Origin: Azolla caroliniana
Taxonomy: Eukaryota; Plantae; Polypodiophyta
DNA length: 64,000 nucleotides
Direction of reading: 5' to 3'
Assembly (NCBI GenBank): GCA_043228905.1
Contig: JBHGNT010000005.1
Coordinates: 15,562,001 to 15,626,000, forward strand
Numbering within the stretch: position 1 is the first letter of the stretch; each line of letters opens with the position of its first letter. Made by a program: the position numbers and the translations under genes. The notes under the pieces were generated by a model. That model was not told the origin of the DNA. It did no database searches and worked only from the letters and a program-made list of their open reading frames with translations. Of this stretch, positions 20,217-61,243 are shown in pieces.

Positions 20217-20408
20217 AAAAACTTTCAACATGAACTCAGTACATTATATCGAATTGTGATGAAAAATAGGAGTTTTCATCACAATTCAATACAATGTACC
20301 AAATTCATGTTCACAGTTTTTTTTTTCGACATTGTATCGAATTGTGATGAAAACTCCTATTTTTAACATCAATTTGATACAATGTAACGAGTTCATGTTT
20401 AAAGTTTT
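20217..20408. repeat. AT-rich nested inverted repeat (foldback-like)
   Basis: AACATGAACTC...ATCGAATTGTGATGAAAA-ATAGGAG-TTTTCATCACAATTCAAT...TTCATGTT forms a hairpin, and the whole unit recurs inverted immediately downstream. Confidence 0.7.
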
Positions 20409-37384: not shown

Positions 37385-37420
<36 letters not shown>

Positions 37421-38127
37421 TTAATGTCTTCTAAGACAAAATTTGGCCCATGAGACAAATGTTTTACAACAAAAATGGGGTATTTACCCATTCATCCAAA
37501 GTAAAAATAAAATAAAATAAGACTTAAGCTAAAGCGTTCTAGTAAAAAATGTTCTAGAAAGGAAATGACTTTATACTAGGCCTAGTTTCATTTCCATCCA
37601 AGTCTCTCAAAAAGAAGCGGGTGGTCAAAGGGTTTCGATGTGGATGTGACCCATGGTCCCAATGTAAAAGGTACCCCAACCATAGCTTCTAGGTGGCACA
37701 ACTCACATTCCCTTATCTTGTTAATTGTTTCTACTCCACGTTGAGTTGCTTTGAAACCCAACATCCGAGGGAGTTTGGTTGTTCTTGGCTTTTCTACGTC
37801 GGCAAGGGAGAGGCTGAGTGGTGTAGGTGTGTCCACATTCATCATCTCCCCTTGTTCCTGAAAGGTTTCATTAGTTACATGCTGGTGAATATTAGAATGG
37901 TTATGGTTAACATTTTGTAGTTTTCTCTCTCTATGTTGTTTTAGCTCTAAGATATACCTACCTAGTCTCTTTATATCCGGGGTATCTAAAAGTTTGGAGA
38001 GGGTGGGAGAGGGTCCTAGTATGTTTTGATATTTCGTCCTTATTTCGACGTAAGTTGGACACTTGCATGTAAAGTTATACTCATCCTCTATCTCTATGTG
38101 ATATAATCTACATATCCTTTCGGTCAT
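37385..38127 (-). mobile_element. RTE-X-like LINE 3' segment with (TC)n tail, copy 1
   Basis: ORF 37588-38133 reads ERICRLYHIEIEDEYNFTCKCPTY...FERLGWK*. The 3' UTR runs into (GA)n at 37385-37418 on the plus strand. Homologous to 41011-41717. Confidence 0.8.
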
Positions 38128-40815: not shown

Positions 40816-41008
40816 GCCGCTACCTTGCATTCATAGAGGATTTTCGCCACAAGCACCCTAGCTAGAAAGGTTTAGCTCAAACAAGAGTTGAGCAACGTCC
40901 GACAAAGAGACATGTCAGTGGCTGACTACACCTCCAAGATCAAGGAGATCGGCGATTCCCTCGCCTCCGTCAATGTGAATGTCGAGGAGGACGAAATGGT
41001 GCAAGTTG

Positions 41009-41010
<2 letters not shown>
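40816..41010 (+). mobile_element. Copia gag fragment (first piece of a copia split by later insertions)
   Basis: LKQELSNVRQRDMSVADYTSKIKEIGDSLASVNVNVEEDEMVQV is typical copia Gag. Confidence 0.7.
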
Positions 41011-41042
<32 letters not shown>

Positions 41043-41717
41043 TATATTAACGTCTTCTAAGGACAAATTTGGCCCATGAGACAAATGGTTTACAAAAAAG
41101 GGGATATTTACCCATTTATCGAAAGTAAAAAAATCAAAATAAGATAAAAAATAGTTCTAAAAATAAACATGTTCTACAAAGAAAAGATGTTATACTAGGC
41201 CTAATTTCATTTCCATCCAAGTCTCTCGAAGAGAAGCGGGAGGTCAAAGGGTTACAATGTGGATGTGGCCCATGGTCCCAATGTAAAAGGTACCCCTACC
41301 ATAGCTTTTAGTCGATGTAACTCACATTCCCTTATCTTCTTAATCTTTTCTACTCCACGTCAACTTGTTTGGAAGCCCAACATCTGTGGGTGTTTGGTTG
41401 CTCTTTGTATTTCTGCTTCCTCAAGGGAGACGCCGAGCAACATAAGTGTATCCACATTCATCGTCTCCCCTTGTTCCTGAAAAATTACACTAGTTACATG
41501 TTGATGAATAGTAAAAGGGTTATGATTAACACTTTGTAATTTATTCTCCCTATGTTGTTTTAGCTCTAAGATATACCTACCTAGTCTTTTTACACTCAGG
41601 GTATCTAATAGTTTGGAGAGGGTGGGAGAGGGTCCTAATATGTCTTGGTATTTCGCCTGTATCTCGGCATAAGTTGGGCACTTGCATGTGAAGTGATACT
41701 CATCCTCTATCTCTATG
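41011..41717 (-). mobile_element. RTE-X-like LINE 3' segment with (TC)n tail, copy 2
   Basis: HIEIEDEYHFTCKCPTYAEIQAKYQDILGPSPTLSKLLDT; same 3' UTR and (GA)n tract (41011-41038) as copy 1. Confidence 0.8.
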
Positions 41718-44700
41718 TGTGAGACAGAGAGAATTGAAAGGAAAGTATTATATTGCACTATAAGAAGGATTACAAAGAGTAGGGAAAAGAGAGCTATAGA
41801 ATTACATTGAACCAATTTGGTTATGGGATGATTGATAGGTCCCTATATTATAAGTCCTTCTAGAGTAATATAGAACATTCTAGAGTATAGAGTATCTAGA
41901 AGGTTTCTAGAGTATTCTAGAATGTTCTAGTATACAGAACACTCTAGAATATTCTAGGTCATTCTAGAATGTAGATTGATAGAATATGCTTATGATATTA
42001 GATTATATATTCTAATAATTATACATAGAAGCATATTATTACAATGGTTAAGGATTTGATATGTGTATAACGAGGTCATGGGTTCAAATCCTTTCTATCC
42101 CCTTTCTTCAACAAGACATCTCATGGGTCCCTAGGGTTTGTACTAGGACCTGGTTTATGAGGATATTAGAGATGAAATGTGGTGACCATGTCCATGACGT
42201 TGGAAAGATTTGCTGTGTCCATGACGTTGGAAAGATTTGCTGTAGGGTCCCAAGTTCGATCATTGGGGGTATAGCCTAACCAATCAATGAAGTAATACAA
42301 CTTGTTGTGCACGATTTTAGAATTGAGAATGGCAACAACATCGAATTCGGGTCCTTCTAAGAACTCAACAGGTGGGGGCGGGGGAGTTGTAAGACGGCCC
42401 GGAATTGAACTTGTGGTGTAAGGTTCCAAAAGGGATACATGAAGACGCATGTGCGGAGGGAGGCCAAGACGAAATGCAACATCACTTACCTTACTAGTGA
42501 TCATGTATGGGCCAAAATGTTGGTAATCCAATTTACCACAAGGCTGAGTGGTCTTGATGTGCGGTGGAGAAGTCATACACGATCCCCAACATGGAACTTT
42601 TTGGAGGAGTCTAGGAGATGGCGATCCGCAAGCCTCTTGTGTGTAACTTGAGCATCATGAAAATTGTGGAGAATGGTAGCGTGAATTTGTTGGAGGCGAC
42701 TAAGATGATCCTCAACAACAAGGCTGGTAGGAACATCTGGATGCGCAATCATCGTCCACTAAGGATGACAACCCGTATTTGCGAAAAATGGGGAATATCC
42801 TGTAGAAGAATGGACTGAGTTATTGTAAGCGAATTCAGCCAAGTACAAAAAATCAACCCAATCATCTTGTTGGTAGTTGATGAAACAACGAAGATATTGC
42901 TCCAAAGTCTGGTTGGTACGCTTAGTTTGGCCATTAGTCTCAGGATGATAGACCGAAGAAAGCTTAGCCGAAATTCGGAGAAGTTTGAACATGTGCTTCC
43001 AAAACTTTGAGATGAATTGTGGACCACGATCACTAATAATATCATCTAGAAGACCATGATGTTTAAATACCTCCTGCATAACTAGATCGATCGCCTCTTA
43101 ACTAGTAATAGACTTCGTACATGGCAAGAAATGTGCCATTTTGGTAAGTCGATCAACCATCATGAGAATTGCATGAAAAACTTTTGAAACGGGAAGATTG
43201 GTAATGAAAACCAAGGATTTTCCGGAATGGGAAGTGGTTGTAGAAAGTCATAGAATTGGTGTTGAGGAATCTTTGATCGACAACATGTATCACAACTGCG
43301 AACATACTCCTCAACAAAATGAGGAAGGCGAGGCCACCAATATTGTCGAGAGACTAATTCTAGAGTTTTGCAAACTCCAAAATGTCCATCCATTGGTGAG
43401 TCATGGAAAGGATGCGATAGGACACTCCCTAGTGCAAAATCGGATGCATCAACTTCAAGGATGAAGCGTTTTGTTGGGTCGACATGTGCTAAAATAGGTG
43501 CCATTGTAAAAGCTCGTTTTAAGCGTTCAAATGCCTCCGCTACATCTGTACTCCATATGAATGGTTGATTTTTGTGTGTGAGTTGAGCGGAAACACGACC
43601 TTCGAATAATTGTTAATAAATTTTCGATACAAATTTGCAAACCCAAGAAAACATTGCACATCGCACACTGAAAGGGGCATCTACCTTTGTAAAATTTCTT
43701 GAACCTTCATGGGGTCCATCCATACAGATACCATCCGATGATACAACATACCCCAAAAATTCCACTTGATTCTAGTTGAAACTACACTTTTCTAATTTTG
43801 TGTCATCTAGGTAAACTATAGTCAAGATATCGAGAAAATCTCGAAAAATATCATTCACCATATGATGGAGAATTGTAGGTGCATTCGTGAGACCGAATGG
43901 AATCATAGTATACTCAAATGTCCATACCGAGTGCGAAAAGCAGTCTTCCATTCATCCCCCAAACGAATCCGTACTAGATTATATGCACTGCGGAGGTCCA
44001 ACTTCGTGAAATATTTTGTTCCATTGAGACGTTCCAAAAGATTCGGGATTAACGGTAGAGCATATCTATTCCGGATAGTCACTTTGTTTATCCCTCGATA
44101 ATCCACGACCAACCGAAGAGACCCATTCTTTTTCATAACGAAGAAGATAGGTGCACTGTCAGGGGATCTAGAATGCTGAATGAATCCGTTTGCCAGATTC
44201 TTGTCGATATATTCCCGCAAAGTCTCTAGCTCTACAAGGGAGAGATTATAAATTGGGCCCCATGGAGATTCTTTCCCTGGTTGTAAGTCAATAGGGCGGT
44301 CGTATGGCCTATGCTCCGGCAATGTATTGGCCTTTACCTTATCAAGGACGTTTGAGAACTCTTTGTATTTCTCTGGTAGTTTAATGTCTACTTCATGTAA
44401 GGTGGATGATGGAATTGCTACTATTGCAAATACGAACATGTCCTCGTTCCCCCCTTCCTCACGTAATTGACGTAGAGAGATGGTTGATAACTTATGGGAT
44501 CTAGTATCAAATGTCGGAGATTTGAGGGATGTGATCCTTGTCCTTGTTTCCTAGGTGTCCTCAATTGTTCTTTTCATCCAATCAATCTTCGGGTTATGGA
44601 GTTCAAACTAAGGGAGACCTGGAACTATTGGGTGTTTCAGACTATGAATAATGTTGAAAGAGATTATGCTTGGCAAATCGCCAAGAACTATACGAATTGG

Positions 44701-45123: not shown

Positions 45124-46417
45124 AAGATGTTGTACACGAAGGCGGATCGGCCCTGTGGACGTGGTGGATGAGGTGGGTCAGCATGTAATGGAAGCGGCTG
45201 ACTGGAACAGAACTCGAGGCATAATCGAAATGCCAACAACAGTTCCAGACCTTCCACGAGTAGGGGGAGTCAAGGCGGCGCTAGAGGTTGGCAAGGAAAG
45301 GCCGTGACGGACTGTTGGTACTGTGGCAGGAAGGGCTATAGAGAGAGCAAGTGCTGGAAAAAATGAGCCAATTCAGACAAGGCCGAATCAAGCCGAGATG
45401 ACGCGGATAGGTGCCAGAGATCGCAGTATGCTGAAGGTTCAAGGCGAGCCAAAACGGGCCCAACCTTCATAATGAAGCACAAATCCAACTCGATGGCAGT
45501 GAACACCTCAAGGTTGAACGAGGCGCATCAAACCACATGATGAATCACAAGGAGTGGGTCTCGACTTTGGAGAAGCCGGAGCAGTCGGGGGTGTCGTCGA
45601 AACTGGCGATGACACCCCTCACCCCATTGAACACATAGGAGATGTCCCTCTCAGCCATGTTAGCCAGAAGGGAATCATGAGAAATGTCTTGCATGTGTCG
45701 ATCAGGGCATGCAAGTTCGATTTACTCATCTCGGGTGCTTCACCGAAGAAGAAGGAAAGATCATCACGCAAGGGCACTGAGAAGGGAGGATTTTCATCAT
45801 CGAAATGAATGACGTCGGCACCACTATGTTTGCGAAGGACCAAAAAGTCGAATCAGACATTGACTTGTGGCACAAGTGGTTTGGTCGCATGAACTTCCCA
45901 CGGCTATGGCGATCGGAGAAGCGGACGATCGAAGAAGCGGCTAGGGCAATGCTTGAGGAGAAGCATATGCCAAAGTTTTATTGGGTCAATGCGGTCCGGA
46001 TAGTCATCTACCTGCAAAACCGGGCATCTGCATATGGAGGAGTGTCGCCACATGAGCTGTATTTCAGGAAGAAGCCGAACTTGGCACACTTGTGGGTATT
46101 AAGTAGCTTTGCATATGTGCATGTGCCGAAGGAAAAATGGAGGAAGTTAGACGTGAAAGCTGAAAAATGTGTTTTGGTCGCCTACTCGGATGGGCAGAAG
46201 GGTTATAAGTGTTATAACCCTTGAACGAAAGAGGTCTGAGTAGGCAAAGATGTCATTCTCGACGACTTAGCTTCGTGGTAGATGCCTTGACCTTCAATCC
46301 CCATCCACACCATTCTAAATTCAGAGGATGAGGTCAGTGAGGCCGAGATGCCCCTTGAGGAAGAGGAAATCGGAACTCTAGAAGAGAGTCCAATCTCATT
46401 TTAGCTAAGTGGGCCGA
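45124..46417 (+). mobile_element. Copia gag/protease/integrase remnant (host of the 46418-60811 element)
   Basis: GASNHMMNH-like protease motif, DLWHKWFG, EAARAMLEEKHMPKFYW and KLDVKAEKCVLVAYSDGQKGYKCYNP. The sequence resumes at 60812 after TSD GCCGA. Confidence 0.8.
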
Positions 46418-47106
46418 TGTTGCCTCTTAGGAACACGGTCCGTGGTCAGTCCTTCGACCTAGACCCCAAGGTGGGTGGGAACAACGAACAGAGCTTAAGC
46501 GTACCGTGTAAGGAGAGAACCGTTGTGGTTCCTCCGTGTGTAAGGGGAGACGGCTACAACCGACTCCTTATCACAGGTTGCACTTATGTACTACTACGCT
46601 TACGTATCCGAGACACAGACACTGAATTAGCCGTAGCTATACACAGAAACTCAGAGAAGATAGTATTCTATTATCATGTGTTCTTTTACAATTCTCAAAA
46701 TTTACACGCGCCTCCTTAAGAGGTTTTCTGCCCTTTATATATGCAGGGTCTAATTAGCCGTTCACGCTTCCCCGCGTGAACTGTTACATACGTTACGCTT
46801 TATATAGTTTCTTATTCCTACGCTTTTGGCCGTCGGTTACTATTCCGGCGGACAACACCTGGCACGCCTGTGGGACAGTGCCTTTGCACGTCGGACCCAT
46901 CACGTTAATCTTCTTCCAAAATGCCCCGGATGTTCGGCTCTATTGTGGTGTCCTCGACCGGAGTTGATGTAGGGCACATAGGTGCATTGTGGTGCGGCTC
47001 CTCTGCTTGGTCGGCCTGGTTTCTCCCGGAGTCGCCTTCGCCGTGTGCGGGTGGTCTGGGTACGGTGGGCTTTTCTTGAGTTAGTGGGCTGGGCTCCGCC
47101 GGTAGC

Positions 47107-49765
47107 GTGCTTGCAGTCGGCTGCTGCTCCGCCTCTATTGTTACATCCTCCGCGGTGTTGGCCGTTTTTGTGTGTCCCTGGGCATGGGGCGGGGATTCCG
47201 CCTGGTCCGCACTATTTTCCGCGTTTTCTGAAGATGGTGTGAGCTGGACCTTTTGTTGGTTAATGGTTTCGCTGTCTGGTCTTGTGGGGAACTCCGCTCG
47301 TTCGTCCCCGCTATTCTCCCCCGTTGTCCTCGCTGGTGATCGGGCCTAAGGTTCCTCTTCTTCGGTTGTGATCGGAATTGGTGTCCCGCTAGGTTCCTCG
47401 TTTGTGTGCGTGTTGCCGGTTTGTGTGATCTGGTGAAATAGCTCCAGTTGACTTTCACCAAAATCATCTAGGAGTTGTGCGAGTTCTTCGGAGTGTTGAT
47501 CTGCTAACGCGCGATAGTCTTGCGCTAGGTCCTCCCGTACGGTCGCAATGATCTCCTCGTTTAGCTTATAAAACCCTCGGCCGTCTTTCTGCCGGTTCTC
47601 CCAGTCCGCACGATACGCGTGCAATTCCGCTGCACCTTGCCCATGCCATCCATCCTTTGTCCAGCGCCGTTTTCAATTGCGCTGTGAACCTTTCCCGGTT
47701 GGTTTGGAGAAGGATGCGCACGTTATCCGTGATGGCCTGGCAGCGGTTGCGTGCGTCTTCCATCGACTTCTGGAGATTCGCGATTTCCTGCAGTTTAACG
47801 GCCGCCGCTTCCTCATATGTGGCCTTCAGGCCCGCCCACAGTTGGGATTCCTTTTCATGTTGTTTTTCTAATTTCCCCATTTCATTGTTTAGGCGGATTT
47901 CGAGTTGATGCCTTCTGTCTTGTTCGACTACCAACTGTTCATTGAACCATACCTTCTTTTTCTAACAAGGCCCGAAGTCTTGCTATTGCCGCCTCTGATT
48001 TCTTCGCGTCCTCTCGTAATTGGGCGTTGTCGTCTTTTGTCCGGATGTGCTAAGCCACCTCCGTAGCCAGTTTCTCTTCAAGCTTTTCGTCCGTTAGCCC
48101 GTATCTCCTTTTCTCTGTCGGAGGATTGGCGTAGTTCTGCTCGAAGACGGTCAATTTCGGATTCCGCTAGCTGCACGACCCTGTTTGTTTTTGAGGTGAT
48201 GGTGGTCTGAGCCTTGATTTCTTCTTTGAGAGCGTTGATAACGTGGTTTGGTGGTGGGGTTTCGTGTTGCGCCGTAGTCGTGTGAGCTTCCAACTCCGCG
48301 ATGCGTGCGTTGGCCTTTTGTAGTTCAGCTTCGGTCAGTTTAACCTTCTTCTAGACATTCTTATTTTTTATGGCCACCTCCTTGGCGCCCGTACTGACCT
48401 TTGCTAGTTCCCGATGGAATTCGACTAGGGCCGTGTTTAAGGGTGGTATCTCCATCCCTACTCGCCGTACCCCGGCGTTCCTCTGTCTGCCGACCCTGGG
48501 TAGCCGGTCCTCATTGTTGCTCTCCGTTGTTTGTGTTAGGGCGCACTCTATCATCTGACGTTCTGCATGTTCCTCGGCCATTCATTGGGCGGCTTTGACC
48601 TGTTGTGTTGCCAGGAACTCGATGAGCTCGAAAGAGGTACCGAACTGCAAGAGGGCGCTGAATTCGTGGGCCGTATCCGAAATATCCGGATATGCCAAAA
48701 CCTCGCTTTCCGCTGTCAATACGGCTTTCCCTCGCTGGGACTGAGTCGTAATAATCGGCCGCGGCTCCTGGATGATTTCGAAGCTGGTATTCGGCTCTGT
48801 TGTTGCGGGGCCTTTGCCTGCGGTCGGTGCCTCCGGATTCGTGGGGGCATTTTTTACCAACCCCTGCCCATCTTTACTGTCCAATCTGTGCCGTTTTGGT
48901 CTAGGGCTTTCCCCCCGTGCTTTGGTGTCTGGTTCTGGGGCTGCCTCCATGGGGTGTCTCGGTTGTTCCTCCTACGTCGCCCGTGTATCCGGTTGGTCGG
49001 TAGGAGGTGTTGTCCTTGGGCCTGCTGGGCCGGTTGGGGTTCCTCCTCCCACTCTGGGGCCGCTAACTCCGCTAACCTGCGTTTCGCGGAGCGGGGCAGA
49101 GCCATGGGTTGGTTGGGCTGTGGTGCTTGGTACGCATGCAAGCCTTCCCTTAACGCCGGCCCTATGATGACCCCCCAGTCGACTGTACGCCCCTCAACGG
49201 TGTCAATAATGATGCCCGCCTTCTGTTTAGGCATCCCGTAAGCGTTGACATGGACGCAGCCTACTTCCAGTAGGAACTTGGCAACTTCATGGAAGAAGGG
49301 ATCCAGAATCTGTTTTGTTCTATAGGCTTTGGCGGAGGATGAGTATCGACCAAAATACCGCTGGAGCGCCTCTGTAGGAGGTATTTCGAAATGTCTTTCG
49401 CCTAGTGAGGATAGGTCTAACTTCTTCCGAATGGAAGAGTTGGTGACCGTGTAGATGTTAAGCCGCCTGGCAATGTCCATGGCGTCCGGGTGCGGAGGTG
49501 CTTCTGCGACCCGAATGTAACCATCCAGGCGCTTCTCCACGAGCCATCGGTGTAGGGCAGTAGAGATGAAGATCGGCATCGCTAGAGTAGGTTCGTGGAG
49601 AGGAGACGGGTAGCAGTGGTGAGTTGGAGCTCTGAGATGTGATAGGGAAGAAGGTGAGGAGGAGCGATGGGAGCGCTGATAGCTAGACGCTGTGTTTCTG
49701 CTTTGTGCAGAAAACCTTCTATTTCCTTCTTTTTGTGGCTTAGGGTTCATTGGGCGGTGAGCCAT
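47107..49765 (-). pseudogene. Extra ORF downstream of pol in the Athila-like element (N-terminal globular domain plus long coiled coil), fragmented
   Basis: The 303-aa ORF 48854-49765 (VDWGVIIGPALREGL) is followed by Glu/Lys/Gln/Ala-rich helical fragments (48078-48293, 47566-47934, 47346-47624) in the sense orientation between INT and the 3' LTR. Confidence 0.6.
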
Positions 49766-52507
49766 CGTGGTGCCGCGTGTTCTTGAACTAGGAGTTTGTG
49801 CATGCCTTTACTCGTTTTAATAGTCACTATCTTCTCTCTTTTTTTTTTTCTTTTTTTTTTTTCATTTTTTTTTTCATAACGGTTAGTTACCCCCTATTTT
49901 TACATTATAGTACAATTGGGCCTGTCCCTTTTATGCTGCGGGTTCTCTGGCTTTGTCCCGTTCGGCGGTGAATGGGTTAGGTGGCGTAGGTCCTAGGTAA
50001 GGTTTGAGCCGAAACCCATTAACTTTTTGCCGTACTATTTCTCCAGCCAGTGTTCCTAGTTGGAACGTGCCCTGTTCCACTCCAATTATCCAGTATGGGC
50101 CGGTCCAGTTGAAACGTAGCTTACCCGGCATCTGGCCCATGCGCATTTGAAAAACTAGCACCGCTCGGCCCACGACGAACTCTTTTTCCCTTGTGCTCCG
50201 ATGTCAATCGACAAATGCTTTACGCCGTCGCTGTTCTTCTTCCAACACAGCCATGCTGTGGAAGCGTTTCTCCCCTAGTTCGAGGAGTTGGTAGAGCCGT
50301 TCCTCCTCTGACTTGGCTTCTGATAATCGGTTCCGTACCTGAATGCGCAAACTAAGTACCCGAAATTCGACCGACATCACAGCTTCTAGTCCAAATGCTA
50401 GCCGGAACGGTGTTGACTGTATGCTTGTTTTGTAACTAGTTCTGTACGCCCATAACGCACTCTGGAGTTTGGTATCCCAGTCCGTTCTATTTTCATTGAC
50501 GGTTTTCTTCAAAATGGTCTGTAAAGTTTTGTTCGTGGATTCCGCTAATCCATTCGCCTGCGGGTAGTATGGCGTGCTTTTCTTGTGGACGATTGCGTAA
50601 TGCTGTGTTAGTTCCCGAACCACCATATTGAGGAAGTGGCTCCCTTGGTCACTGATGAGATCAATCAGGCAGCCGAACTGGCACCAGATGTGCTCGTACA
50701 GAAATTTGGCTGTGACGGCCGTCGTATTTTCCCGTAGTGCCTTTGCTTCTACCCATTTGGTACAGTAATCCGTGGCTACCAATATGTATTTGTTGCCCGT
50801 ACGGGCTACTGCTGGTGTGAAGGGCCCCACAAAATCCAATCCCCACTTTTGGAAGGGGTCCAGTGGTAATACGGGTTGGTGTGGCATCCTTGCGTCCTCC
50901 GCGGGTTGACCCATCCGCTAGCACAAATCACACTTTCTACAATACTCTGATGTGTCCTTCTGCGTTGTTGGCCACCATAAGCCCGCCTGCCATATTTTGC
51001 GGGCTGTCACGTTGCCCGCGTAATGGCCGTCGACCGTGCCGCAGTGTGCCTCCCGTAAAACTGCTTCTTTTTCATCCTGACGGACTCCACGTCGCCAAAT
51101 GCCGTCACTTCCTTTGTGATATAAATACCCTTCGACCAGGCAGAAGTGACGGCTTCAGACGGCTAGTCGTTTCTTCTCGTCTATGCGTAATTGTGGTGGA
51201 GGTAGTCCTGTAGTAAAAAAGTACGTCATTTCCATAAGCCATCGTTCCGGAAAGGTGGATTCCGTTTTTTCTGCAAATGTCGCTACTCGCCAGATGTCGG
51301 CGTCCGGAAAATCGTCGTCATCTTTCTGTACTGTTTCTCCATTCTCAAGTCTGCTCAAAAAATCCGCCACTGGGTGTTGCGTCCTTGGCCAGTGCTGAAT
51401 TACGAACTCGAATTCCTGGAGTAGCAGCATCCACCGCGCCAATTTCCCTGTCAGGGCTTGTTTCTCTACCAAATACAATAATGCCGAATGATCCACGTGG
51501 AAAGTGAATTTCCGTCCTAGTAAATAATGTCAGAATTTATTGATGCTATAGATCATCCCTAGCGCCTCCCGCTCTGTTGTGGAATAGTTACGCTCTGCTG
51601 CTGATAATTTACGACTTGCGTAGTATACTGGCCTGTACCAGTTTGGTTCGGTGAGTTGCATTAGCGCGCTTCCTATTGCTATGTCTAAGGCGTCGACGAG
51701 CATGTGGAATGGCTTCGCCCAAACTGGAGGTTGTACTATGGGAGCCTGCGTGAGCATTATCTTAAGTGCCTCATAGGCCTTATCCTCTGTTGCAGTCCAT
51801 TGGAAAGGAGTTCGATGTACGGCAGCGTGTAGTGGCGTGGCGAAGTTCGCCAAATACCGTATCATCCGACTATGCCATCGTATTTGGCCCAGAAACCGGC
51901 TTGTTTGGGTTGACCGCTATTCCTTCCTTGCTGACTATGTGGCCTAGGAGAGTCCCGCTGGTCACGCCGAAGGCACATTTCACGGGATTCAAGCTTAAGC
52001 GTGCGGTGCGGCAACGTTCCAGGCAGAGACGTAAGTGCGAGAAATGGTGTTTTGTTCGCCCATATACCGCAAAATTGTCTAAAAAGACTTGCATGAACGC
52101 CGGAATGTATTTCCCAAAGCTCTCCGTAATCGTTCGTTGGAATGTTGTCGGTGCTGTCTTTAGCCCAAACATCATGACGACCGCCACATATACTCCCCAG
52201 TCCGTGACAAATGCCGTCTTCTCCTGGTCGTTGGGGTGCATGCGTACTTGGTTATAGCCACTGAAGCCATCTAAGAAATTGTACATGTCATGGCCTGCGA
52301 TGACGTCCAGCACGCTATCGGTGAAGGGTAAGGGAAATGCGTTTGTAATGGTTATGGCGTTTAATTTCCGGTAATCCACGCATACCTGTATTTTGCCGTT
52401 TTTCTTTGGGACAACCACTATCAGGCTAAGCCATGTCGCTTGTTTTACTGGCCATATGATCCCAGCCCTGAGCAGCTTGTCAATTTCTTCTTTCACGCGG
52501 GTTGCGT

Positions 52508-55500
52508 TGTCGCGTTGTTACGCGCGTGCGTGGAGAAGGGCGGAACCACGGGGGTCTTGGACTAAGGAGAAGGGGAGAAGGAATAGGACTTCGGAATGGA
52601 GCTTAGCACAAGAAGAGAAAGAATGAACAAGAGGAAGATGGAGGCCAAATGCTCAACAAGATATATTAGAACCGAAAACCGATTACAAAATGGCGGCCGC
52701 GTAGGCCGCACCAAACGACTATGATAAACCCGAAACCCTAATCCGACGAAGAGGAAAAGAAACCCTAACCCTAAAACGAAATGGTATACCTCACTCACAC
52801 TCAAAAATAAGGCAACCCCCACAATGGTGCTCTTCCTCTCCTTTTATAGCACAAGGAGAGAAGACCGTTTTCAAAAAGGGTGCTACAAAATATCCCCTTT
52901 TCAATCAATGGAGATATTTCCCTTGATTTTAGGGGAGGTGGGAAGGATGGGTCTTAACTCCCACCTCTACACGAACTACTATGTACCTATCTCTCTCTCT
53001 CACGTGGATGTGCACGCAAAAGCACATCACCTTTACACTTTACAAATCCTAAGGTGCATTTCTAGCACCATACTTATCACTATCGGTAAATAGAAATACA
53101 ACATGTTGATGTGCAACGTTGCACATCGCGGGTTTGCTTGCTTCGCTCGGTTTTCCGCCTATGGACGAAAATCTTCACGACATCCGCCCCCACCTAACCG
53201 CACATCCACCGGTATGTGCCAAAAGGGGAACAAAACGCGAGATTTTCGGCCAAGGCGGCCAACCGAGCCCTTGACAACCTCGTGGGCTTGCCCGGCTTTG
53301 TCTTCCACTTTGAGCAAGGCCACCCCGTCGACACAAACCACCGTCGCCTTCCGGCCCACCATCTTCGTCGAATGGTCTCGAACCGTCGGCCCCATCCGAT
53401 CCGCCACACTCGACGACGTTCGCCGAGTCGTTGCCTCCACCCGATCCGCCACACTTGACGACGTTCGCCGAGTAGTTGCCTCCACCCGATCCGCCACGTC
53501 CACCGTGTTTCCTCGAACCACCGTCTACATCCGGACCGCCATTTCCGATGCCCGCGTTTTCTTCCCCGATCGGTCCTCCCGAACGCCGTTGCCGACCCTT
53601 TGTCCGCCTCGTATATCCTCCGGATCCGCCTTTTTCGTGCCGCGCACCTCATCGTGCCGACTCTTCTCGCTCCGCGCTTGCCTTCCGTGGGCTTTCCTCG
53701 TACGTCGGTGTCGTCCTCCGAATGCGTGCTCGTGCTTCGGTCCTTCGATGACCCCATCACGCATTTTTCGCCTTCCCTTTGCTTGCCGTGCTCTCTCGCC
53801 GTAGAGCATACCATCGTTCCCGTGCTCGTTGCTTGGCCCTCATGCGGCCGCATTGCACGTTTCGCATTCCGCTCCTCTTCGCGTACCCTTTCGGAAAGGT
53901 ACCCTTCTTCCCCGACCTCCGTTTCGCTCGGAGGAACACCCTCTTGGCCCTCTTGGCCCGCTCGACCGTACACATCCTTCGTGATGTCGTGTTCGTTCTT
54001 TCGGGGGCATACATCTTCGTTCTCCGCGACCTCCCGTATGCCTCTCTCGGTGCCTTCATCCGTTGTGGCCTTCGTCCCCTCGCCGCCACCGTCCGCCACT
54101 CTTGGTCTCACGTCGGCACTCGCGCCGACCGCCGGAGTCTCTATAGCCGGTGTAGAGGATCCCTCTCGGGCCTTATCTTCGTGGCCGCCGGTCTTAGCCT
54201 CTCCGTAGGCCACCTCTTCCCACCAATCTTCCCTAGCATCGTGCCAGGTCTCGTCGTCGCCGCCTTCCTCCTCGTATTCGCCTCTCGAAGGCGTGATCCG
54301 ACCGTCATCTTCGGTCGCACGATGTGGCTCCTTCGTAGGCATGCATGTGTCTTGGCCCTCCATCGGCCGTATTGCATGCATCTCGTCTCGCTCTTCCGCC
54401 GTAGACCCGACCTCCGTGTCGGTCTTCTCCTCCTTTGTCGCCGTAGCCCATTCCGACACGGGCTCGCCGTCTTGGACCCACCCGTCCACCATCTCGTACC
54501 GGATATCCGTTCCGGCAACCTCGTACGCTCCGGCCTCCGACTCCTCGCCGCCACCCGCCGTTTCTCCGGTCTTATGTTGATCCGCAACCGCCGTAGTCTC
54601 TAGAGTGGGTATGGAGGGTCTCGTTTGTTTCCGTTTTTCCCCCGAACCATGGTCGTCGTGCCCGGTTAGCCTCCATCTCGCGCTTACCGGCTCCCATCGT
54701 AACCGTAACCGTAACCGTAACCGTAACCGGCCAATCGGTCTCGCCGGCTTCCTTCGGTTTGGGCCCGGTTCGCCGGCCCTTACTCTCTTCTTCTTCCGTG
54801 CCGTATTCCGGTCGGGTCGGTTCCCGACTCTCTCCTCGTTTCCGCTCCGGTCCTCTCCGTCGGACCCACCGTATACGCCCATTCCGGGCCCCGCGTACTC
54901 GTCTTCGTATGCGCTCTCTCCGGGCCTCACCTCCTCACGGTCACCGCCCATCTCTCCGGTCTCACGTTGGCATTTGAGCACAACCGCCGAAGTCTCCGGC
55001 CCCGGTGTCAAGGGGTCTTGCCTCCGTCCGCTCCAATCTTCCTTCTCGTTTTCGTTGCCCACCTTGCCGCCGTCACCTCCCGTCGCACTAAGCCTCATGC
55101 CGGCACTCGGGCCGGCCATTGGAGCCTCTAGGATTGGTGTGGGTAAGGACCCGGCACCGCCGCTTGTTGTCTCCGTAGCCGCTTTCGTTCGGACGTCGTT
55201 GTCCGCGGCTCCCCCATCTCCGATTCCGTAAGCCTCTAGTATGCTTGCCACCACCTCTTCTTCGCCGTTCTCCGCATCATTTTGTTTGCCCGCCTTGCCG
55301 CCGCCACCGCCCGTCGTTCTAGGTCTCGTGCCGGCACTCGGGCCGACCGCCGAAGCCTCTAGGGCCGGTGTGTGGAAGGTCGCGGCACCACCGCTCGCCT
55401 CCTCTCCGCTCGATGTTTTGGGCCGCCGTGCCCCGAATCTTCCGCCCACTTTCGAAGTGGCGCTCTCCGCTTTGTAGTCACCGGCCTCATCCTTGGCCGT

Positions 55501-57984
55501 CCATTCGCCGCAAGACGAGAGGGTTGCTCGCTCCGCACCCTCTCCCATGTCGTCGTCGTTTCGGTTGCCCGCCTTGCCGCCGCCACCGTCCGTCACTCTA
55601 GGCCTCTCGCCGGCTCTCGGGCCGGGTGCCGGAGTCTCTAGGACCGGTGTGTGGAAGGTCGCGACACCACCACTCCTCTCGTTCGTAGCCACCTCCATTC
55701 GGACATCGTCGTCCGTGGCTACCCCGTCTTCGGTTTCGCAAGCATCGAGTATGCTTGCCGCCGCCTCTTCTTCGCCGGACTCGTCCTTATCTCGGTTGTC
55801 CGCCTTGCCGCCGCCACCGTCCGTAGCTCTAGGTCTCGTGCCGGCACTCGGGCCGACCACCGAAGCCTCTAGGGCCGGTGTGTGGAAGGTCGCGACACCG
55901 ACGCTCGTCTCCTCTTCCTCCTCCATTTCGCAAGCCTCGAGTATGCTCGCGAAATCCTCGTAGAACGTTTCGGGCAACCGCGTCCCGAAACTTCCGCCCA
56001 CTCTCGAAGTGGCATCCATCGCTCCGTAGATATCGGCCTCGTCCATGGCCGTTCTTTTTCCCCGAGATGAGACGGTCGCTTGCCCCGCACCTTCTCTCGT
56101 GTCGACACCGCGGTCGCCCGCCTTGCCACCGCCACCGCCTTTCACCATAGGTCTTACGCGGGCACTCGGGCCGGCTGCCGGGGTCTCTTGAACCGGTGCG
56201 TGGAAGGTTGCGGTACCGCCGCTTGTCTCCTCCGTACTCGATGATTCGGGCCACCATGTCCCGAATCCGCCATGTCCGCTCGAATCGGCGATCGCCGCCT
56301 CACCGTCCCCGACCTCGTCCTCGGTCGTTCTTTTCCCCCATGTCGAGAGGGCGGCTCGCTCCGCACCCTCTCCTGTGGTACCGATGTACCATTCTCTTTC
56401 GGCCTCCGCATAGGCCCCGTCCTCCATGTGTGAGGAAGCTCCTTCCTCCGCGTCCTCCGATCCGCTCGGGCCCGACCCCGCAATAAGCCATTCTTCGGCT
56501 TCGATTTTCGCCATTACGAGCCCGCACGCCTCCCATACCAACGCCTCGAAGTCGTACTCCTCCGGTTGGTCGTGCATCGAGCTCTCTTCCGGCGGTGGTG
56601 TGTAGCCGCCCACCGCCCTCTCTTCTCCGCCGCTCGCGGGTCGTGTTGTGGCCGACCACCTCTTATCATGTTGTCGGCACACCCGTTCTACTTCGGGCCA
56701 CTCCTCGGTGAGACCATGCGCCCCATAATCGTCTTGAAGCTCGATCATGATGTCCATCCTCTCCTCATGATGGACCGTCTTCAAAAATAGGAGGACTTTG
56801 TCCGCCCCCACCGATCTTCGTTCCCACTCCGAGAGTTGAGAGAAACGACGCTCGAACTCTCGGAATGCCTTTATTGCGCTCCGATGGCGCCTCGCCGACG
56901 CCACCCACCGATCGAATTCTCGCCGACCTCTTACCTCCGATTCCGCGCACCCGTATGCCTCCATTAGAGCCCCTTCAAAGGACTCCCACGATTCGTGAGC
57001 TTCTTGGAGCTCCTTGACCTCCTCGTACTTTGATGCGGCCGCCGCTCGACGAAAGAACTCTAGCCTCGTCGCTTCGTCCACGCCCATCCCCGTCATTTCC
57101 GCATCGTAGGCTCTCAAAAATTTTGGGACCTCCTTCCCATCGAACCGGCCGACTAGACGGACCACCCTTTCGACCGCTTGTTGAGCCGCCTCTCGCCTCG
57201 CCCTCTTCCGTCCGGCGTCCATCAAGATCTTTGCCAACATCTCCTCGGAGTCGAAGCCTTCTTCCATCTCTTTCTCCCTTGCCGCCTTTCACGTCGGGTT
57301 CACCAAAGATGTCGCGTTGTTACGCGCGTGCGTGGAGAAGGGCGGAACCACGGGGGTCTTGGACTAAGGAGAAGGGGAGAAGGAATAGGACTTCGGAATG
57401 GAGCTTAGCACAAGAAGAGAAAGAATGAACAAGAGGAAGATGGAGGCCAAATGCTCAACAAGATATATTAGAACCGAAAACCGATTACAAAATGGCGGCC
57501 GCGTAGGCCGCACCAAACGACTATGATAAACCCGAAACCCTAATCCGACGAAGAGGAAAAGAAACCCTAACCCTAAAACGAAATGGTATACCTCACTCAC
57601 ACTCAAAAATAAGGCAACCCCCACAATGGTGCTCTTCCTCTCCTTTTATAGCACAAGGAGAGAAGACCGTTTTCAAAAAGGGTGCTACAAAATATCCCCT
57701 TTTCAATCAATGGAGATATTTCCCTTGATTTTAGGGGAGGTGGGAAGGATGGGTCTTAACTCCCACCTCTACACGAACTACTATGTACCTATCTCTCTCT
57801 CTCACGTGGATGTGCACGCAAAAGCACATCACCTTTACACTTTACAAATCCTAAGGTGCATTTCTAGCACCATACTTATCACTATCGGTAAATAGAAATA
57901 CAACATGTTGATGTGCAACGTTGCACATCGCGGGTTTGCTTGCTTCGCTCGGTTTTCCGCCTATGGACGAAAATCTTCACGACA
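52508..57984 (-). mobile_element. Very young non-autonomous gag-only gypsy (TR-GAG-like); 675-bp LTRs 57310-57984 (5') and 52508-53182 (3'), tRNA-Trp PBS 57288-57305, PPT 53183-53199, 4-bp TSD GCGT
   Basis: The LTRs are identical by eye and in the ORF track. GCGT at 52504-52507 and 57985-57988. Excising the element with one GCGT restores the host RT frame MNPNYA-TRVKEEIDKLL. Confidence 0.95.
53194..57267 (-). CDS. 1357-aa intact ORF: Gag-like N-terminus (about 200 aa) plus long acidic Gly/Ala/Thr-rich repeat region and Arg/Trp-rich tail; no PR, RT, RH or INT
   Basis: RFDGKEVPKFLRAYDAEM...SWESFEGALMEAY resembles the gypsy capsid N-terminus. The unit GGxATFHTPxLExxxxGPSAGxRPRxTxGGGGKAG is repeated. 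The ORF fills the whole internal region from about 20 nt after the PBS to the PPT. Confidence 0.8.
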   Translation of the reverse strand: MEEGFDSEEMLAKILMDAGRKRARREAAQQAVERVVRLVGRFDGKEVPKFLRAYDAEMTGMGVDEATRLEFFRRAAAASKYEEVKELQEAHESWESFEGALMEAYGCAESEVRGRREFDRWVASARRHRSAIKAFREFERRFSQLSEWERRSVGADKVLLFLKTVHHEERMDIMIELQDDYGAHGLTEEWPEVERVCRQHDKRWSATTRPASGGEERAVGGYTPPPEESSMHDQPEEYDFEALVWEACGLVMAKIEAEEWLIAGSGPSGSEDAEEGASSHMEDGAYAEAEREWYIGTTGEGAERAALSTWGKRTTEDEVGDGEAAIADSSGHGGFGTWWPESSSTEETSGGTATFHAPVQETPAAGPSARVRPMVKGGGGGKAGDRGVDTREGAGQATVSSRGKRTAMDEADIYGAMDATSRVGGSFGTRLPETFYEDFASILEACEMEEEEETSVGVATFHTPALEASVVGPSAGTRPRATDGGGGKADNRDKDESGEEEAAASILDACETEDGVATDDDVRMEVATNERSGGVATFHTPVLETPAPGPRAGERPRVTDGGGGKAGNRNDDDMGEGAERATLSSCGEWTAKDEAGDYKAESATSKVGGRFGARRPKTSSGEEASGGAATFHTPALEASAVGPSAGTRPRTTGGGGGKAGKQNDAENGEEEVVASILEAYGIGDGGAADNDVRTKAATETTSGGAGSLPTPILEAPMAGPSAGMRLSATGGDGGKVGNENEKEDWSGRRQDPLTPGPETSAVVLKCQRETGEMGGDREEVRPGESAYEDEYAGPGMGVYGGSDGEDRSGNEERVGNRPDRNTARKKKRVRAGEPGPNRRKPARPIGRLRLRLRLRLRWEPVSARWRLTGHDDHGSGEKRKQTRPSIPTLETTAVADQHKTGETAGGGEESEAGAYEVAGTDIRYEMVDGWVQDGEPVSEWATATKEEKTDTEVGSTAEERDEMHAIRPMEGQDTCMPTKEPHRATEDDGRITPSRGEYEEEGGDDETWHDAREDWWEEVAYGEAKTGGHEDKAREGSSTPAIETPAVGASADVRPRVADGGGEGTKATTDEGTERGIREVAENEDVCPRKNEHDITKDVYGRAGQEGQEGVPPSETEVGEEGYLSERVREEERNAKRAMRPHEGQATSTGTMVCSTAREHGKQREGEKCVMGSSKDRSTSTHSEDDTDVRGKPTEGKRGARRVGTMRCAARKRRIRRIYEADKGSATAFGRTDRGRKRGHRKWRSGCRRWFEETRWTWRIGWRQLLGERRQVWRIGWRQRLGERRRVWRIGWGRRFETIRRRWWAGRRRWFVSTGWPCSKWKTKPGKPTRLSRARLAALAENLAFCSPFGTYRWMCG

Positions 57985-60811
57985 GCGTAATTGGGGTTCA
58001 TGCGGTAGCGACGCTGCTGGACAGGTTTCGCGTCCGTTGCTAAATTGATCTTATGTTGATTGAACTTGGGATCTAACCCCTTCATGTCCTCATGAGCCCA
58101 CGCGAACACATCTTTATATTCCGTTAGTAGTGTGATCATTGTGGTTCTCTGTTCCGGCCTCAATTCTTTTGCTATGGAGAGGAACTGGGGTTCCGATCCC
58201 GTACCCACATTTACTTCGTCGAGAGCGGAAGCGGTGACCCGTCGTGAAATCTCCATTTCCCTTTTGAAGGCTGCCCGCGCTCTGCTGAGTTCCAATATGG
58301 ACTCTGGGTTTGGTTCGTACGGCTCTTCGCTCGGAACGATGGCCGTAGTATATTCTGCCGCAGTTGCGATGACATCTATCTCGAACAACGGAATAATCCG
58401 AGGATGTTCGTCAAGGTACGCTTCCAATTCAGCATCCTCCACCCCAACCAACATATTCATGTCTTCCGCATACAACGGTGTTATCCCCTTAGGTTGGGGC
58501 GTATTGCCTTCCGTAGGAACACGAACCTTGATGCGTCCCTACCGGAAACTGATACACTCGTGTTGCCAGCTCTACTTGATATTTGTTGTCCGAAGCCATG
58601 GTCTGCCCAGAAGCACTGGGTACGCTCCTGGCGCGTCCAAAGCGAGGACGACCGCTGATATGTCGAAGTGGTGTCCGCCCACGATGATGCCTATTTTGCG
58701 AATTAGCCCCAACGGTCGCACTGATCGGGTATCTGCCATGCGAAGCCAGAATGGACACGCCTCCCATTCGGAAATGCCCAATTGTTCGCAAGTTTTCGCG
58801 CTAATCACATTGACGCCTGAGCCGCCGTCGATTACGCATCCAGGGACTTCCTGTCCGTGCAATATTACTGTAATGGCCGGGTTGTGCTGATCCACCACTA
58901 GTGGTCCCTTGCTGACGTCAGTCAGGTTTGTGGCAATGCTCGCCCCGGTCATGCCCGCCACCTGTGCTTCCATGGTCTGGCGGAAACATGGAACTAGCTG
59001 TAGTAGTTTGTCGGGACGTACACGGTGGCTGCTGTTGATCCCATCGTTGTTCCTGGTGCCGCTCATCCCCTGAGCTTTCGTCGTAACGCCGGTGATCCCT
59101 ATATTGTCGAGGCTTACCCCGATAGCCATTGAAGCCGCCCCGTTTGTTTATCGGGCGTTGATGTTCGTATCGCCGACCCCCTTTGGCGTAACTCGGATGT
59201 CCACGATAATCCTCGTCCTCCGGGTTCTCCTCCTCGAACTCGTTGTGATTCCGGCGATTCCGGTTGTACCTGTCCTCCCGCGGGTTGCGATCCTTATACC
59301 GGGGTCAGTCTTCTTGCCTCCTTTGTTCCGCCCGATGTGGTTGCCGCTGTGTGTCCATGCTGCGGACCACGGGCGTCCCTCTGTTTAACATATTGTACTC
59401 GCATTGGTCGACTGTGTGAACCTTCAAGTGGAAGATTGGGCAGTGGATTCGCATATTGCACTCCACCGCGGAATGCCCCGAGTTCAAGCAAATCGTGCAC
59501 TGGATTGCCTGACGAAATTGGTGTTCCTCATCCTGAGGTCATGCTTGTCGTAAGGATGACATCGAAAACCTCTCCTCCTCGTCATCCAATTCGAGCTGTA
59601 ACGCTCGTTCAATCACCATATCCTCCATTTCCCCTTTCACGCTATTGCTGTTGAGCGTTGCCCAGATGGGCCGGCATAACGTTGCCAGAAATGTCTCCCG
59701 AGCCTCCTCCTCCACAGGGCTTCGATCCAGTTTCCATCGTAAATTTTGGAACCGTAAGCTGAAGTCTGCTATTGTCTCGGTCGGTAGTTGCTTAATTGTA
59801 TAAAACTGCCTGAGAATCTCGCGTTGTGGAACCCTCCGGTGGAAAAAACGCAAGAAGGCGGACTGCAGCTGATCGAAGGTTGTTATGGCTGGTAAATCCA
59901 TCTATGAATGCCAGAACGCCGCATGCCCATCTAATGTTAATCCAAACTCCATCATTTTCGACTGGTGTGCCATCGTCTCGGAAAGGTTCTGTACCATGTG
60001 GTTCGCATTCCAAACGTTTAAGAACATGCGAATATGAGTTGCGGCGTCGGTTTCGCCGTTAAAGCGGGGGTAGGCAAAGGCCATCGTGGGAGCTACGGCG
60101 GATCGGAAAAGGTCACCGGGTGGTTGCGGTAAGCGTGGTCCCCTCGCCTCGTCGAGGTATTTGGGGAGCAAGGAATCCCCTTTGCACTCTTGGCAGGTAT
60201 TACTGGGGTCGTCGATGCACGGCTTTTGCCGGGCGCGTTCTTCTGCCTGGCGTGCGATGGACCTTGTTATTGGTCGGTCTTGTCTTGTTGGTTCTCTGGG
60301 TCGTCTACGGCTAAACATCCATTCGTTGTTGCTCGTCTGTGAGGAAACACAGATCACCAAACGTGCCAAAAGTGTTGCCTCTTAGGAACACGGTCCGTGG
60401 TTAGTCCTTCGACCTAGACCCCAAGGTGGGTGGGAACAACGAACAGAGCTTAAGCGTACTGCGTAAGGAGAGAACCGCTGTGGTTCCTCCGTGTGTAAGG
60501 GGAGACGACTACAACCGACTCCTTATCACAGGTTGTGCTTACGTACTACTACGCTTACGTATCCGAGACACAGACATTGAATTAGCCGTAGCTATACACA
60601 GAAACTCAGAGAAGATAGTATTCTATTATCAGGCGTTCTTTTACAATTCTCAAAATTTACACGCACCTCCTTAAGAGGTTTTCTGCCCTTATATATGCAG
60701 GGTCTAATTAGCCATTCAGGCTTCCCCGCGTGAACCGTTACATACGTTACGCTTTATATAGTTTCTTATTCCTACTCTTTTGGCCGTCGGTTACTATTTC
60801 GGCGGACAACA

Positions 60812-61243
60812 GCCGAATGAGCAACTGAGTCGAATGAACTAGTCGGATGAAGAGTCGGCGAGTAGTGGAGACTCAACCGTGCAGTCCTTGCATTAGAAAT
60901 CAAGGAGATAGTTTATGCGCAAGGAGAAGGGGAAGATGAAGATGTCAGAATACGGCAGTGAGGCCGACACATCGGATCGAAGCAAATTTGATGTGGCCAT
61001 GAGCAATGAGGGACCTCCGAACACGAGGTCAAAGTCGGCCGAGAGGGCCACGTAATCGGCGAACCAGAAGTTACGTTGATCTACCCGCCAGAAGAATCTC
61101 ATTATTTGGTACAGGTATAATGAGTATATGGCGCATCATTATGCATATATGGAGAAAGTGGCAAATGTGCGTGAGCCGGAGAGCTATGAAGAAGCGGCGA
61201 GAGATGCGAATTGGCGTGCCACTATGGAGGATGAGATGCGCGT
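60812..61243 (+). mobile_element. Continuation of the split copia (INT-RT linker)
   Basis: EPESYEEAARDANWRATMEDEM is the copia pre-RT motif; it is interrupted at 61244 by the next gypsy. Confidence 0.8.

What the first reader, a model, noticed from the sequence alone, without database searches (positions are those of the whole stretch)
46858..60372. Athila-like retrotransposon with tRNA primer sites at BOTH internal junctions and no polypurine tract
Seen: all ORFs and the LTR TATATAAAGGG read on the minus strand, so 46858-46876 is where the PPT should be. Instead the sense strand reads GTCCCACAGGCGTGCCA-GG-LTR, so the opposite strand has TGGCACGCCTGTGGGAC (46860-46876) 2 nt from the LTR. No purine tract adjoins either LTR. 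At the normal PBS position (60355-60368) the sense strand reads TGGCACGTTTGGTG. Established: TGGCACGCC(C/T)RGTGGGAC is the tRNA-Arg PBS type of Tat/Ogre-group elements, and LTR elements normally prime the plus strand from an RNase H-resistant PPT. Inference: this family may prime plus-strand synthesis with a second tRNA-Arg annealed to minus-strand DNA. Alternatively, its own tRNA-like 3' segment could pair with the 5' PBS (the TTT could pair G-U) or act as the primer. Either would be a non-canonical reverse-transcription scheme, and this is the best candidate for an undescribed system here.
Basis: partly seen in the sequence, partly recalled or inferred. Interest (0 to 1): 0.85.

Follow-up and report, generated by a model that had tools for sequence, protein, structure and literature searches.

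The report
tRNA-binding site replaces retrotransposon polypurine tract
A lineage of plant jumping genes lacks the purine-rich stretch that such elements normally use to start their second DNA strand and carries at that exact spot a conserved copy of an arginine tRNA's tail split by a small hairpin, so a host tRNA likely starts both strands, a way of copying not found in the papers searched.

Summary
Observation confirmed and family-wide. The 8.9-kb gypsy element (minus strand, LTRs 95.9% alike, 5-bp TSD) has no purine tract; GTCCCACAGGCGTGCCA ends 2 nt before the 3' LTR. Contigs of four runs from four studies keep the window's letter as majority at every motif position. Of 80 loci found through a neighbouring protein, 54 reach the LTR and 52 carry the motif at the same 2-nt spacing, across four subfamilies whose flanks are 41-57% alike. 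The match to tRNA-Arg runs over positions 49-76 in two blocks split by a 13-14-nt hairpin with compensatory pairs. Most subfamily-level changes are wobble-compatible with a tRNA bound to minus-strand DNA. Best reading (0.55): host tRNA-Arg also primes the plus strand; rival (0.25): the RNA's own tRNA-like end is the primer. Neither is shown; the host tRNA was not available (bacterial stand-ins used). Athila membership is unproven (Arg PBS). This scan has noted the same feature on other pieces of this genome. Not found in 10 literature searches.

The parts
60812..60816 (-). target-site duplication, 5' side (TCGGC)
60373..60811 (-). 5' LTR, 439 nt, TG...CA
60355..60368 (-). minus-strand primer binding site, tRNA-Arg type, 14 nt, 4 nt after the LTR; T at 60361 is private to this copy
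60337..60352 (-). small CTGTG...CACAG hairpin just after the PBS, kept with different loops in relatives
   Evidence: seen by eye in 7 loci and the window
59539..60381 (-). gag (broken by stops)
   Evidence: (PF03732)
57985..59147 (-). protease and start of RT (broken)
   Evidence: (PF13975, below cut-off)
52508..57984 (-). nested, unrelated LTR element with identical 675-nt LTRs, interrupting RT
49930..52507 (-). RT, RNase H, integrase (broken by frameshifts and stops)
   Evidence: (PF00078, PF17917, PF17919, PF00665)
46905..49807 (-). extra 3' ORF in sense orientation, coiled-coil-rich, ending ILEED-stop; broken here, 976 aa and intact in L040; no Pfam family at cut-off
46891..46900 (-). block matching tRNA-Arg positions 49-58 (T-stem 5' strand and T-loop)
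46877..46890 (-). 14-nt insert forming a 4-bp hairpin, with compensatory pairs between subfamilies, placed between tRNA positions 58 and 59
46860..46876 (-). 17-nt block matching tRNA-Arg positions 59-76 with CCA, one base lost; on the + strand an inverted PBS; occupies the PPT position
46858..46859 (-). 2-nt spacer (GG; GG 21, TG 19, AG 10, other 2 among 52 loci)
46418..46857 (-). 3' LTR, 440 nt, with TATATAAAGGG at 46741-46731
46413..46417 (-). target-site duplication, 3' side (TCGGC)

Best explanation
This gypsy lineage has a conserved, inverted, two-block tRNA-Arg site in place of the polypurine tract, and a second host tRNA-Arg likely binds it on the minus-strand DNA and starts the plus strand. 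Shown: no purine tract; the site, its 2-nt distance to the LTR and its inner hairpin are kept across subfamilies; an ordinary Arg-type PBS sits at the 5' end; the intact relative L040 encodes zinc-knuckle Gag, RT and a complete RNase H. Inferred: tRNA-Arg primes the minus strand as usual; after strand transfer RNase H clears the RNA over the site; the free end of the minus-strand DNA site (about 10 unpaired bases in the predicted DNA fold) catches the tRNA's 3' end; with nucleocapsid help tRNA positions 76-59 and 58-49 pair on both sides of the looped-out hairpin, much as Ty1's split PBS does; RT extends from the terminal A, writing 2 bases and then TG; RNase H removes the tRNA and integrase trims the 2 bases. 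Inferred origin: a tRNA that once primed a plus strand by mistake was copied into DNA together with its added CCA and the 2-base spacer, and this junction was moved to the inner 3' end, making the mistake heritable.
For: Conservation: majority letter at all 17 positions in 4 of 4 runs; 52 of 54 loci that reach the LTR; 88-100% identity between four subfamily representatives against 43-54% upstream and 41-57% in the LTR; outside the reading frame, and in subfamily 4 about 90 nt from the stop codon. Spacing invariant, first spacer base free (G/T/A), as expected when a preformed 3' end is extended (inference). Homology reaches the T-arm: 547 of 594 cells in 22 contigs of coverage 5 or more equal a tRNA-Arg stand-in at positions 49-76; of 47 differing cells 34 are G-to-A or U-to-C (wobble-compatible with tRNA on minus DNA), 4 fit only sense-strand pairing, 9 neither. 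G53A and G49A break the sense-strand T-stem but stay as T-G pairs in minus DNA. The conserved fold is the predicted best fold of minus-strand DNA in 6 of 10 representatives, leaving the TGGCACG end free. Ty1 and Ty3 use acceptor plus T-arm pairing with split sites (PMC5371799, passages).
Against: No priming was observed. The host's tRNA-Arg was not available; the stand-in is a bacterial gene fetched with a pattern built on the motif, and the wobble count depends on it having G at 67. The 47 cells come from about six subfamily-level events (four wobble-type, one sense-type A58G, one neither U55A), and G-to-A is also the common methylation change; the C-to-T over G-to-A excess at the motif's CpG is matched in the LTR, so it gives no signal. 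The universal loss of one base forces a bulge 11-12 nt from the primer end. The compensated hairpin fits a structure in the RNA as well. In 4 of 10 representatives, the window copy among them, the predicted best DNA fold is another one.
Confidence: 0.55

Rival explanations
1. The genomic RNA's own tRNA-like 3' segment is the plus-strand primer: its hairpin part escapes RNase H, the enzyme cuts just after CCA as it does when it removes a tRNA primer, and the remaining hybrid is extended, so the segment works as a non-purine PPT that mimics a bound tRNA.
For: Same position and 2-nt spacing as a PPT; perfect complementarity to its own DNA needs no bulge, which explains the lost base; covarying pairs in the inner hairpin (column pair 28-37: GC 19, CG 12, UA 9) and at 12-47 (CG 11, UA 10); A58G keeps a G-U pair only in the sense strand. 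PPT and RT co-evolve and PPT sequences differ widely (PMC3185511, passages).
Against: Sense-RNA folds are no more stable than shuffles (z from -1.6 to +1.0) and differ between subfamilies. A self-primer need not keep T54 and C56 of the T-loop (22 of 22 and 21 of 22). The base right after the supposed cut varies freely. A pyrimidine-rich RNA:DNA hybrid is normally RNase H-sensitive (recalled).
Confidence: 0.25
2. The segment pairs with the element's own 5' PBS to circularise or dimerise the RNA (or to gate tRNA loading), and the plus strand starts by some other means close by.
For: Duplex energies of -19 to -28 kcal/mol between the two sites; subfamily 4 has the matching C in the PBS and G in the 3' site.
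Against: The commonest variant (15 of 52) mismatches its own PBS; only 7-8 contiguous matches in 6 of 9 elements with both sites; the 3' site matches tRNA positions 59-62 and 49-58 that the PBS lacks; it leaves the exact 2-nt distance to U3 and the missing PPT unexplained.
Confidence: 0.1
3. The tRNA copy is a captured relic kept for another reason (RNA export, packaging, small-RNA decoy), and plus-strand priming uses a short cryptic site.
For: tRNA copies are known to get joined to retroviral ends by accident (PMC12220202, passages on its own case and on Colicelli and Goff 1986).
Against: No purine run over 5 nt in the last 30 nt of any of 54 junctions; a precise LTR end needs a precise start, and the only fixed feature there is CCA plus 2 nt.
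Confidence: 0.08
4. This copy is a one-off recombination or mis-priming product in a family with a normal PPT.
For: None found.
Against:: the motif is the majority state; no locus shows the ORF end followed by a purine tract and TG.
Confidence: 0.01

Closest known systems
Canonical Ty3/gypsy reverse transcription (yeast Ty3; PMC5371799, passages read; PMC3185511, passages read)
   Same: LTRs with TG...CA ends, 5-bp TSD, tRNA-type PBS, GAG-PR-RT-RH-INT order, complete RNase H, a fixed short distance between the plus-strand start and U3.
   Different: No polypurine tract; its place is held by a tRNA 3'-half copy whose complement lies on minus-strand DNA.
Bipartite primer binding sites of Ty1 and Ty3 (PMC5371799, passages read)
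   Same: Two separate blocks that would pair with the acceptor strand and the T-arm of one tRNA, split by a small loop as in Ty1.
   Different: Those sites are on the RNA and serve minus-strand priming; this one has the tRNA's own polarity on the RNA, so it can bind tRNA only as minus-strand DNA.
Athila and Tat (Ogre, TatIII, Retand) OTA non-chromoviruses (REXdb; PMC6317226, passages and Additional file 5 read)
   Same: No chromodomain, 5-bp TSD, about 9 kb, a 3' extra ORF; no aRH as in Athila; tRNA-Arg PBS as in Ogre (89%) and TatIII (64%).
   Different: Athila's PBS types are Asp 72%, Asn 12%, Ala 4%; Tat has aRH in 92-100%. Nearest named RT-RH relatives (Riccia, Marchantia, Adiantum) are only 45-52% identical. 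The passages read give no PPT-less lineage; Additional file 1 (per-element table) could not be read.
tRNA copies joined to retroviral LTRs (Colicelli and Goff 1986, known only through PMC12220202, passages read; original not held)
   Same: A reverse-transcribed mature tRNA with its added CCA abuts an LTR end.
   Different: Single aberrant molecules, not an inherited element feature. PMC12220202 describes the 1986 model as spurious minus-strand priming; I recall it as plus-strand priming and could not check.
Tf1-type self-priming and half-tRNA priming (PMC6317226 and PMC5371799, passages)
   Same: Precedent that LTR elements can change primer type.
   Different: All these alternatives concern the minus strand; the plus strand stays PPT-primed.

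Membership tests
Ty3/gypsy LTR retrotransposon | LTRs, TSD, GAG-PR-RT-RH-INT order | tested here: met
PPT-primed LTR retroelements | purine tract adjoining the 3' LTR | tested here: not met
   longest purine run 3-5 nt in the last 30 nt of 54 of 54 junctions and 5 in the window
Athila | no chromodomain and no aRH | tested here: met
   Pfam scan of the intact 1886-aa L040 polyprotein shows neither
Athila | 5-bp TSD and 7.3-22.8 kb size | tested here: met
   TSD TCGGC; about 8.9 kb without the nested element; ranges
Athila | dominant PBS tRNA-Asp, -Asn or -Ala | tested here: not met
   PBS is Arg-type in window and relatives; Athila types
Athila | placement inside the Athila clade against REXdb references | not testable with these tools
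   no labelled references; tree puts the motif clade among non-seed-plant elements, apart from the Malus/Tasmannia/Pinus branch, with weak deep support
Tat (Ogre, TatIII, Retand) | additional archaeal-type RNase H (aRH) | tested here: not met
   no such Pfam entry among the precomputed domains of 120 long relatives
Tat (Ogre, TatIII, Retand) | tRNA-Arg PBS | tested here: met
   (bacterial tRNA stand-ins)
Phygy / Selgy | 4-bp TSD; tRNA-Trp or -Ala PBS; no extra ORF | tested here: not met
   5-bp TSD, Arg PBS, large 3' ORF
Ty1/Ty3 bipartite PBS | second block complementary to the tRNA T-arm on the sense RNA | tested here: not met
   no consistent sense-strand complement of tRNA 49-62 in LTR or leader of 8 elements; the T-arm block has the opposite polarity
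tRNA gene or Rfam-described tRNA-like RNA | full cloverleaf or a match to a covariance model | tested here: not met
   ARAGORN 0 genes in the window; no relevant Rfam match at E up to 10
dual tRNA-primed element (proposed) | tRNA covalently joined to plus-strand strong-stop DNA | not testable with these tools
   needs particles or an in vitro reaction
dual tRNA-primed element (proposed) | site pairs with a host tRNA-Arg | tested here: inconclusive
   no host genome held; only bacterial tRNA-Arg stand-ins

The most novel reading that the evidence does not exclude
A whole clade of plant LTR retrotransposons has abandoned the polypurine tract and primes both DNA strands with host tRNA-Arg, using a captured tRNA 3' half as a split, hairpin-interrupted binding site on minus-strand DNA: the first retroelement lineage with tRNA-primed plus-strand synthesis.
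Probability: 0.55. Interest if true: 0.9.

Novelty: new variant of a known kind. Interest (0 to 1): 0.78.

Why it matters
PPT priming of the plus strand is treated as universal for LTR retrotransposons and retroviruses; known primer variation concerns only the minus strand. A successful, high-copy lineage without a PPT would show that the step can be rewired, would offer a natural test of what RT and RNase H need to define an LTR end, and would explain why PPT-based annotation misses or mis-orients such elements. Either leading mechanism (second tRNA, or a built-in tRNA-like primer) is undescribed in the papers searched, and the one-base difference between site and tRNA makes them directly distinguishable by sequencing.

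Tried and rejected
No own genome held, so no host tRNA set and no count of intact copies. No RNA holder listed: says nothing on expression. Four scans of viral contigs found nothing. ARAGORN and Rfam found no tRNA or RNA family at the site; a relaxed ARAGORN run on the 80 loci gave only noise. Literature: 10 full-text searches, mostly seen as listings only; none describes a PPT-less or doubly tRNA-primed lineage; two sequence-word searches were useless for tRNA identity. Subscription papers, the 1986 J Virol paper and REXdb Additional file 1 could not be seen and may bear on novelty. The model-rich tree did not finish; FastTree was used. Plus-strand transcription of the element was rejected: gag-pol and the extra ORF run the same way in the window and in intact L040. 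Depth differences along the stretch were not used (edge effects). C-to-T versus G-to-A asymmetry gave no signal against the LTR control. 26 of 80 loci gave no junction: 10 end within 250 nt, 2 are cut inside the site by other sequence (L061, L079), 14 end early or are interrupted. LTR seeds came from motif-bearing loci, so a PPT-bearing subfamily with a different LTR could be missed, though none was seen by eye. 3' junctions of outgroup elements (P0285-P0291, Riccia, Adiantum) could not be fetched, so PPT loss is not mapped on the tree.

Full report
Observation. The element lies on the minus strand from 60811 to 46418, with LTRs of 439 and 440 nt that are 95.9% identical and a TCGGC duplication on both sides. 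A younger, unrelated LTR element with identical LTRs sits inside RT (52508-57984); without it the element is about 8.9 kb. Gag, protease, RT, RNase H and integrase pieces and a long 3' extra ORF all read on the minus strand. Inside the 3' LTR the sense strand reads GTCCCACAGGCGTGCCA, GG, TG; inside the 5' LTR it reads CA, CTTT, TGGCACGTTTGGTG. The longest purine run within 30 nt of either LTR is 5, whereas four other LTR pairs in the window have ordinary G-rich tracts.

Is it a family trait? No own genome was held. Fourteen public runs hold part of the 3' end; I laid four, from four studies and two organism labels (one may be the window's source). On 46781-46960, 1472, 1482, 1210 and 291 contigs were laid; the window's letter is the majority at all 17 motif positions, listed variants reach 3-16% of depth (one 34%), and no insertion or deletion is listed in the motif. 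At the 5' PBS the T at 60361 is private to the window: 99.3-99.7% of depth has C. For whole junctions I searched with the end domain of the extra ORF, which does not presuppose the motif: 199 stretches were confirmed and the best 80 kept, from 13 assemblies that look like one study and partly repeat each other. Of these 80, 54 show the LTR start; 52 carry the 17-nt motif ending exactly 2 nt before TG (three common variants 15, 14 and 5 times, the rest with one to three changes), one keeps only its last 10 bases and one lacks it; the longest purine run in the last 30 nt is 3-5 in all 54. The other 26 end early or are interrupted. The 52 fall into four subfamilies by LTR start. Between representatives the motif is 88-100% identical, against 43-54% upstream and 41-57% in the LTR. 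It lies outside the reading frame. High-coverage contigs are collapsed repeats, so they describe families rather than single copies; in these the 5' PBS reads TGGCACGCC followed by TGG or CGG, 4-5 nt from the LTR.

What the site is. A pattern for this 3' end found 36 loci in prokaryote genomes, 32 of which hold an ARAGORN tRNA-Arg gene. These are stand-ins, not the host's tRNA. Against them the element matches in two blocks: positions 49-58 (T-stem 5' strand, T-loop) and 59-76 (with CCA, one base at 65/66 always lost), split by a 13-14-nt insert. Eukaryotic tRNA genes do not encode CCA (established knowledge), so the copy likely came from a mature tRNA through RT. The insert lies at position 58, the methylated A at which RT normally stops (recalled). 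It forms a 4-bp hairpin with three pair types at one position (GC 19, CG 12, UA 9 of 47 sequences) and two at another; 0 of 500 shuffles reach the covariation score, although the tool warns that related sequences inflate this, and the count of pairs with double changes was not above shuffles (162 of 500). No full tRNA or Rfam family is present.

How it likely works. The site has the tRNA's own polarity on the RNA, so a tRNA can bind only its minus-strand DNA copy. In 22 contigs of coverage 5 or more, 547 of 594 cells equal the stand-in; 34 of the 47 others are changes that keep a wobble with a tRNA on minus DNA, 4 fit only sense-strand pairing and 9 neither. That is about four against one against one independent events, depends on G at tRNA position 67, and overlaps with methylation decay, so it is a hint only. 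The conserved fold is the predicted best fold of minus DNA in 6 of 10 representatives, leaving the TGGCACG end unpaired, while sense-RNA folds vary and are no more stable than shuffles. The intact relative L040 encodes a single 1886-aa polyprotein with a zinc knuckle, RT, RNase H and integrase. Ty1 and Ty3 bind acceptor strand and T-arm at split sites, and their PBS is not refreshed from the tRNA (PMC5371799, passages), which fits both the two-block site and the drifting 12-14-nt PBS. I therefore put second-tRNA priming at 0.55. The RNA's own segment acting as an RNase H-cut primer (0.25) explains the lost base and the hairpin more simply. Pairing with the own PBS (0.10) is weakened by the commonest variant, which mismatches it.

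Family. RT-RNase H of five motif-bearing elements form one branch (FastTree support 0.91; 1.0 with four relatives whose junctions are unknown; 126 rows, 423 columns) among elements from Riccia, Marchantia, Adiantum and unnamed samples, 45-52% identical for the named ones. No aRH or chromodomain. This works like Athila in domain content but has the Arg PBS typical of Ogre and TatIII (PMC6317226, Additional file 5); membership is not established. The host is likely a non-seed plant; earlier notes disagree on moss or fern and I did not test it.

Novelty. Ten library searches and passages of five papers (PMC6317226, PMC3185511, PMC12220202, PMC13332604, PMC5371799) gave no PPT-less or doubly tRNA-primed lineage; subscription papers and REXdb's per-element table were out of reach. 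The nearest precedent is single aberrant tRNA-LTR joints in retroviruses. This scan has reported the same feature on other pieces of this genome, and mirror-image PBS motifs in two decayed fungal elements; these are unchecked AI notes and are not counted as support. Verdict: a real, conserved, lineage-wide replacement of the polypurine tract by a tRNA-Arg-derived site; mechanism inferred, directly testable through the one-base difference between site and tRNA.

Noticed in passing
window 52508-57984: Young nested element (identical 675-nt LTRs) with a 4-bp GCGT target duplication (NCGN type), a normal G-rich tract, a PBS that I recall as tRNA-Trp type, and one 1364-aa repetitive ORF with no Pfam match: Phygy-like hallmarks but no pol. 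A second, older copy lies at about 646-3074.
   Followed up: partly
window 60337-60352; L014, L024, L030, L038, L039, L062, L073: CTGTG...CACAG hairpin right after the 5' PBS, kept in all four subfamilies with different loops.
   Followed up: partly
window 46905-49807; L040 6958-9888; P0169: Large sense 3' ORF (about 1000 aa) with no Pfam family, a conserved domain near its end (170 relatives) and a conserved acidic C-terminal tail (ILDILEED-like); function unexplained.
   Followed up: partly
L001-L080 junctions: The GAG variant of the site dominates high-coverage contigs (11 of 22) while AGG dominates low-coverage ones (A at 67 in 21 of 25), and both variants occur in two subfamilies, hinting at parallel change or recombination.
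   Followed up: partly
window 4115-9363, 11789-17200, 31495-36663 and 86-608: Ordinary LTR elements with TGGTATCAGAG-type PBS and G-rich tracts; two are related and lie in opposite orientation.
   Followed up: partly
window 37385-41719: Direct repeats of about 715 nt, 84% alike, each starting in a GA microsatellite, without TG...CA ends.
   Followed up: no
window 20211-20408: Short tandem and inverted 55-80-nt repeats, possibly a MITE cluster.
   Followed up: no
L003 (junction at 1000), L042 (4815): L003 has lost most of the site but keeps its last 10 bases and the 2-nt spacer; in L042 the LTR start is preceded by unrelated sequence.
   Followed up: partly
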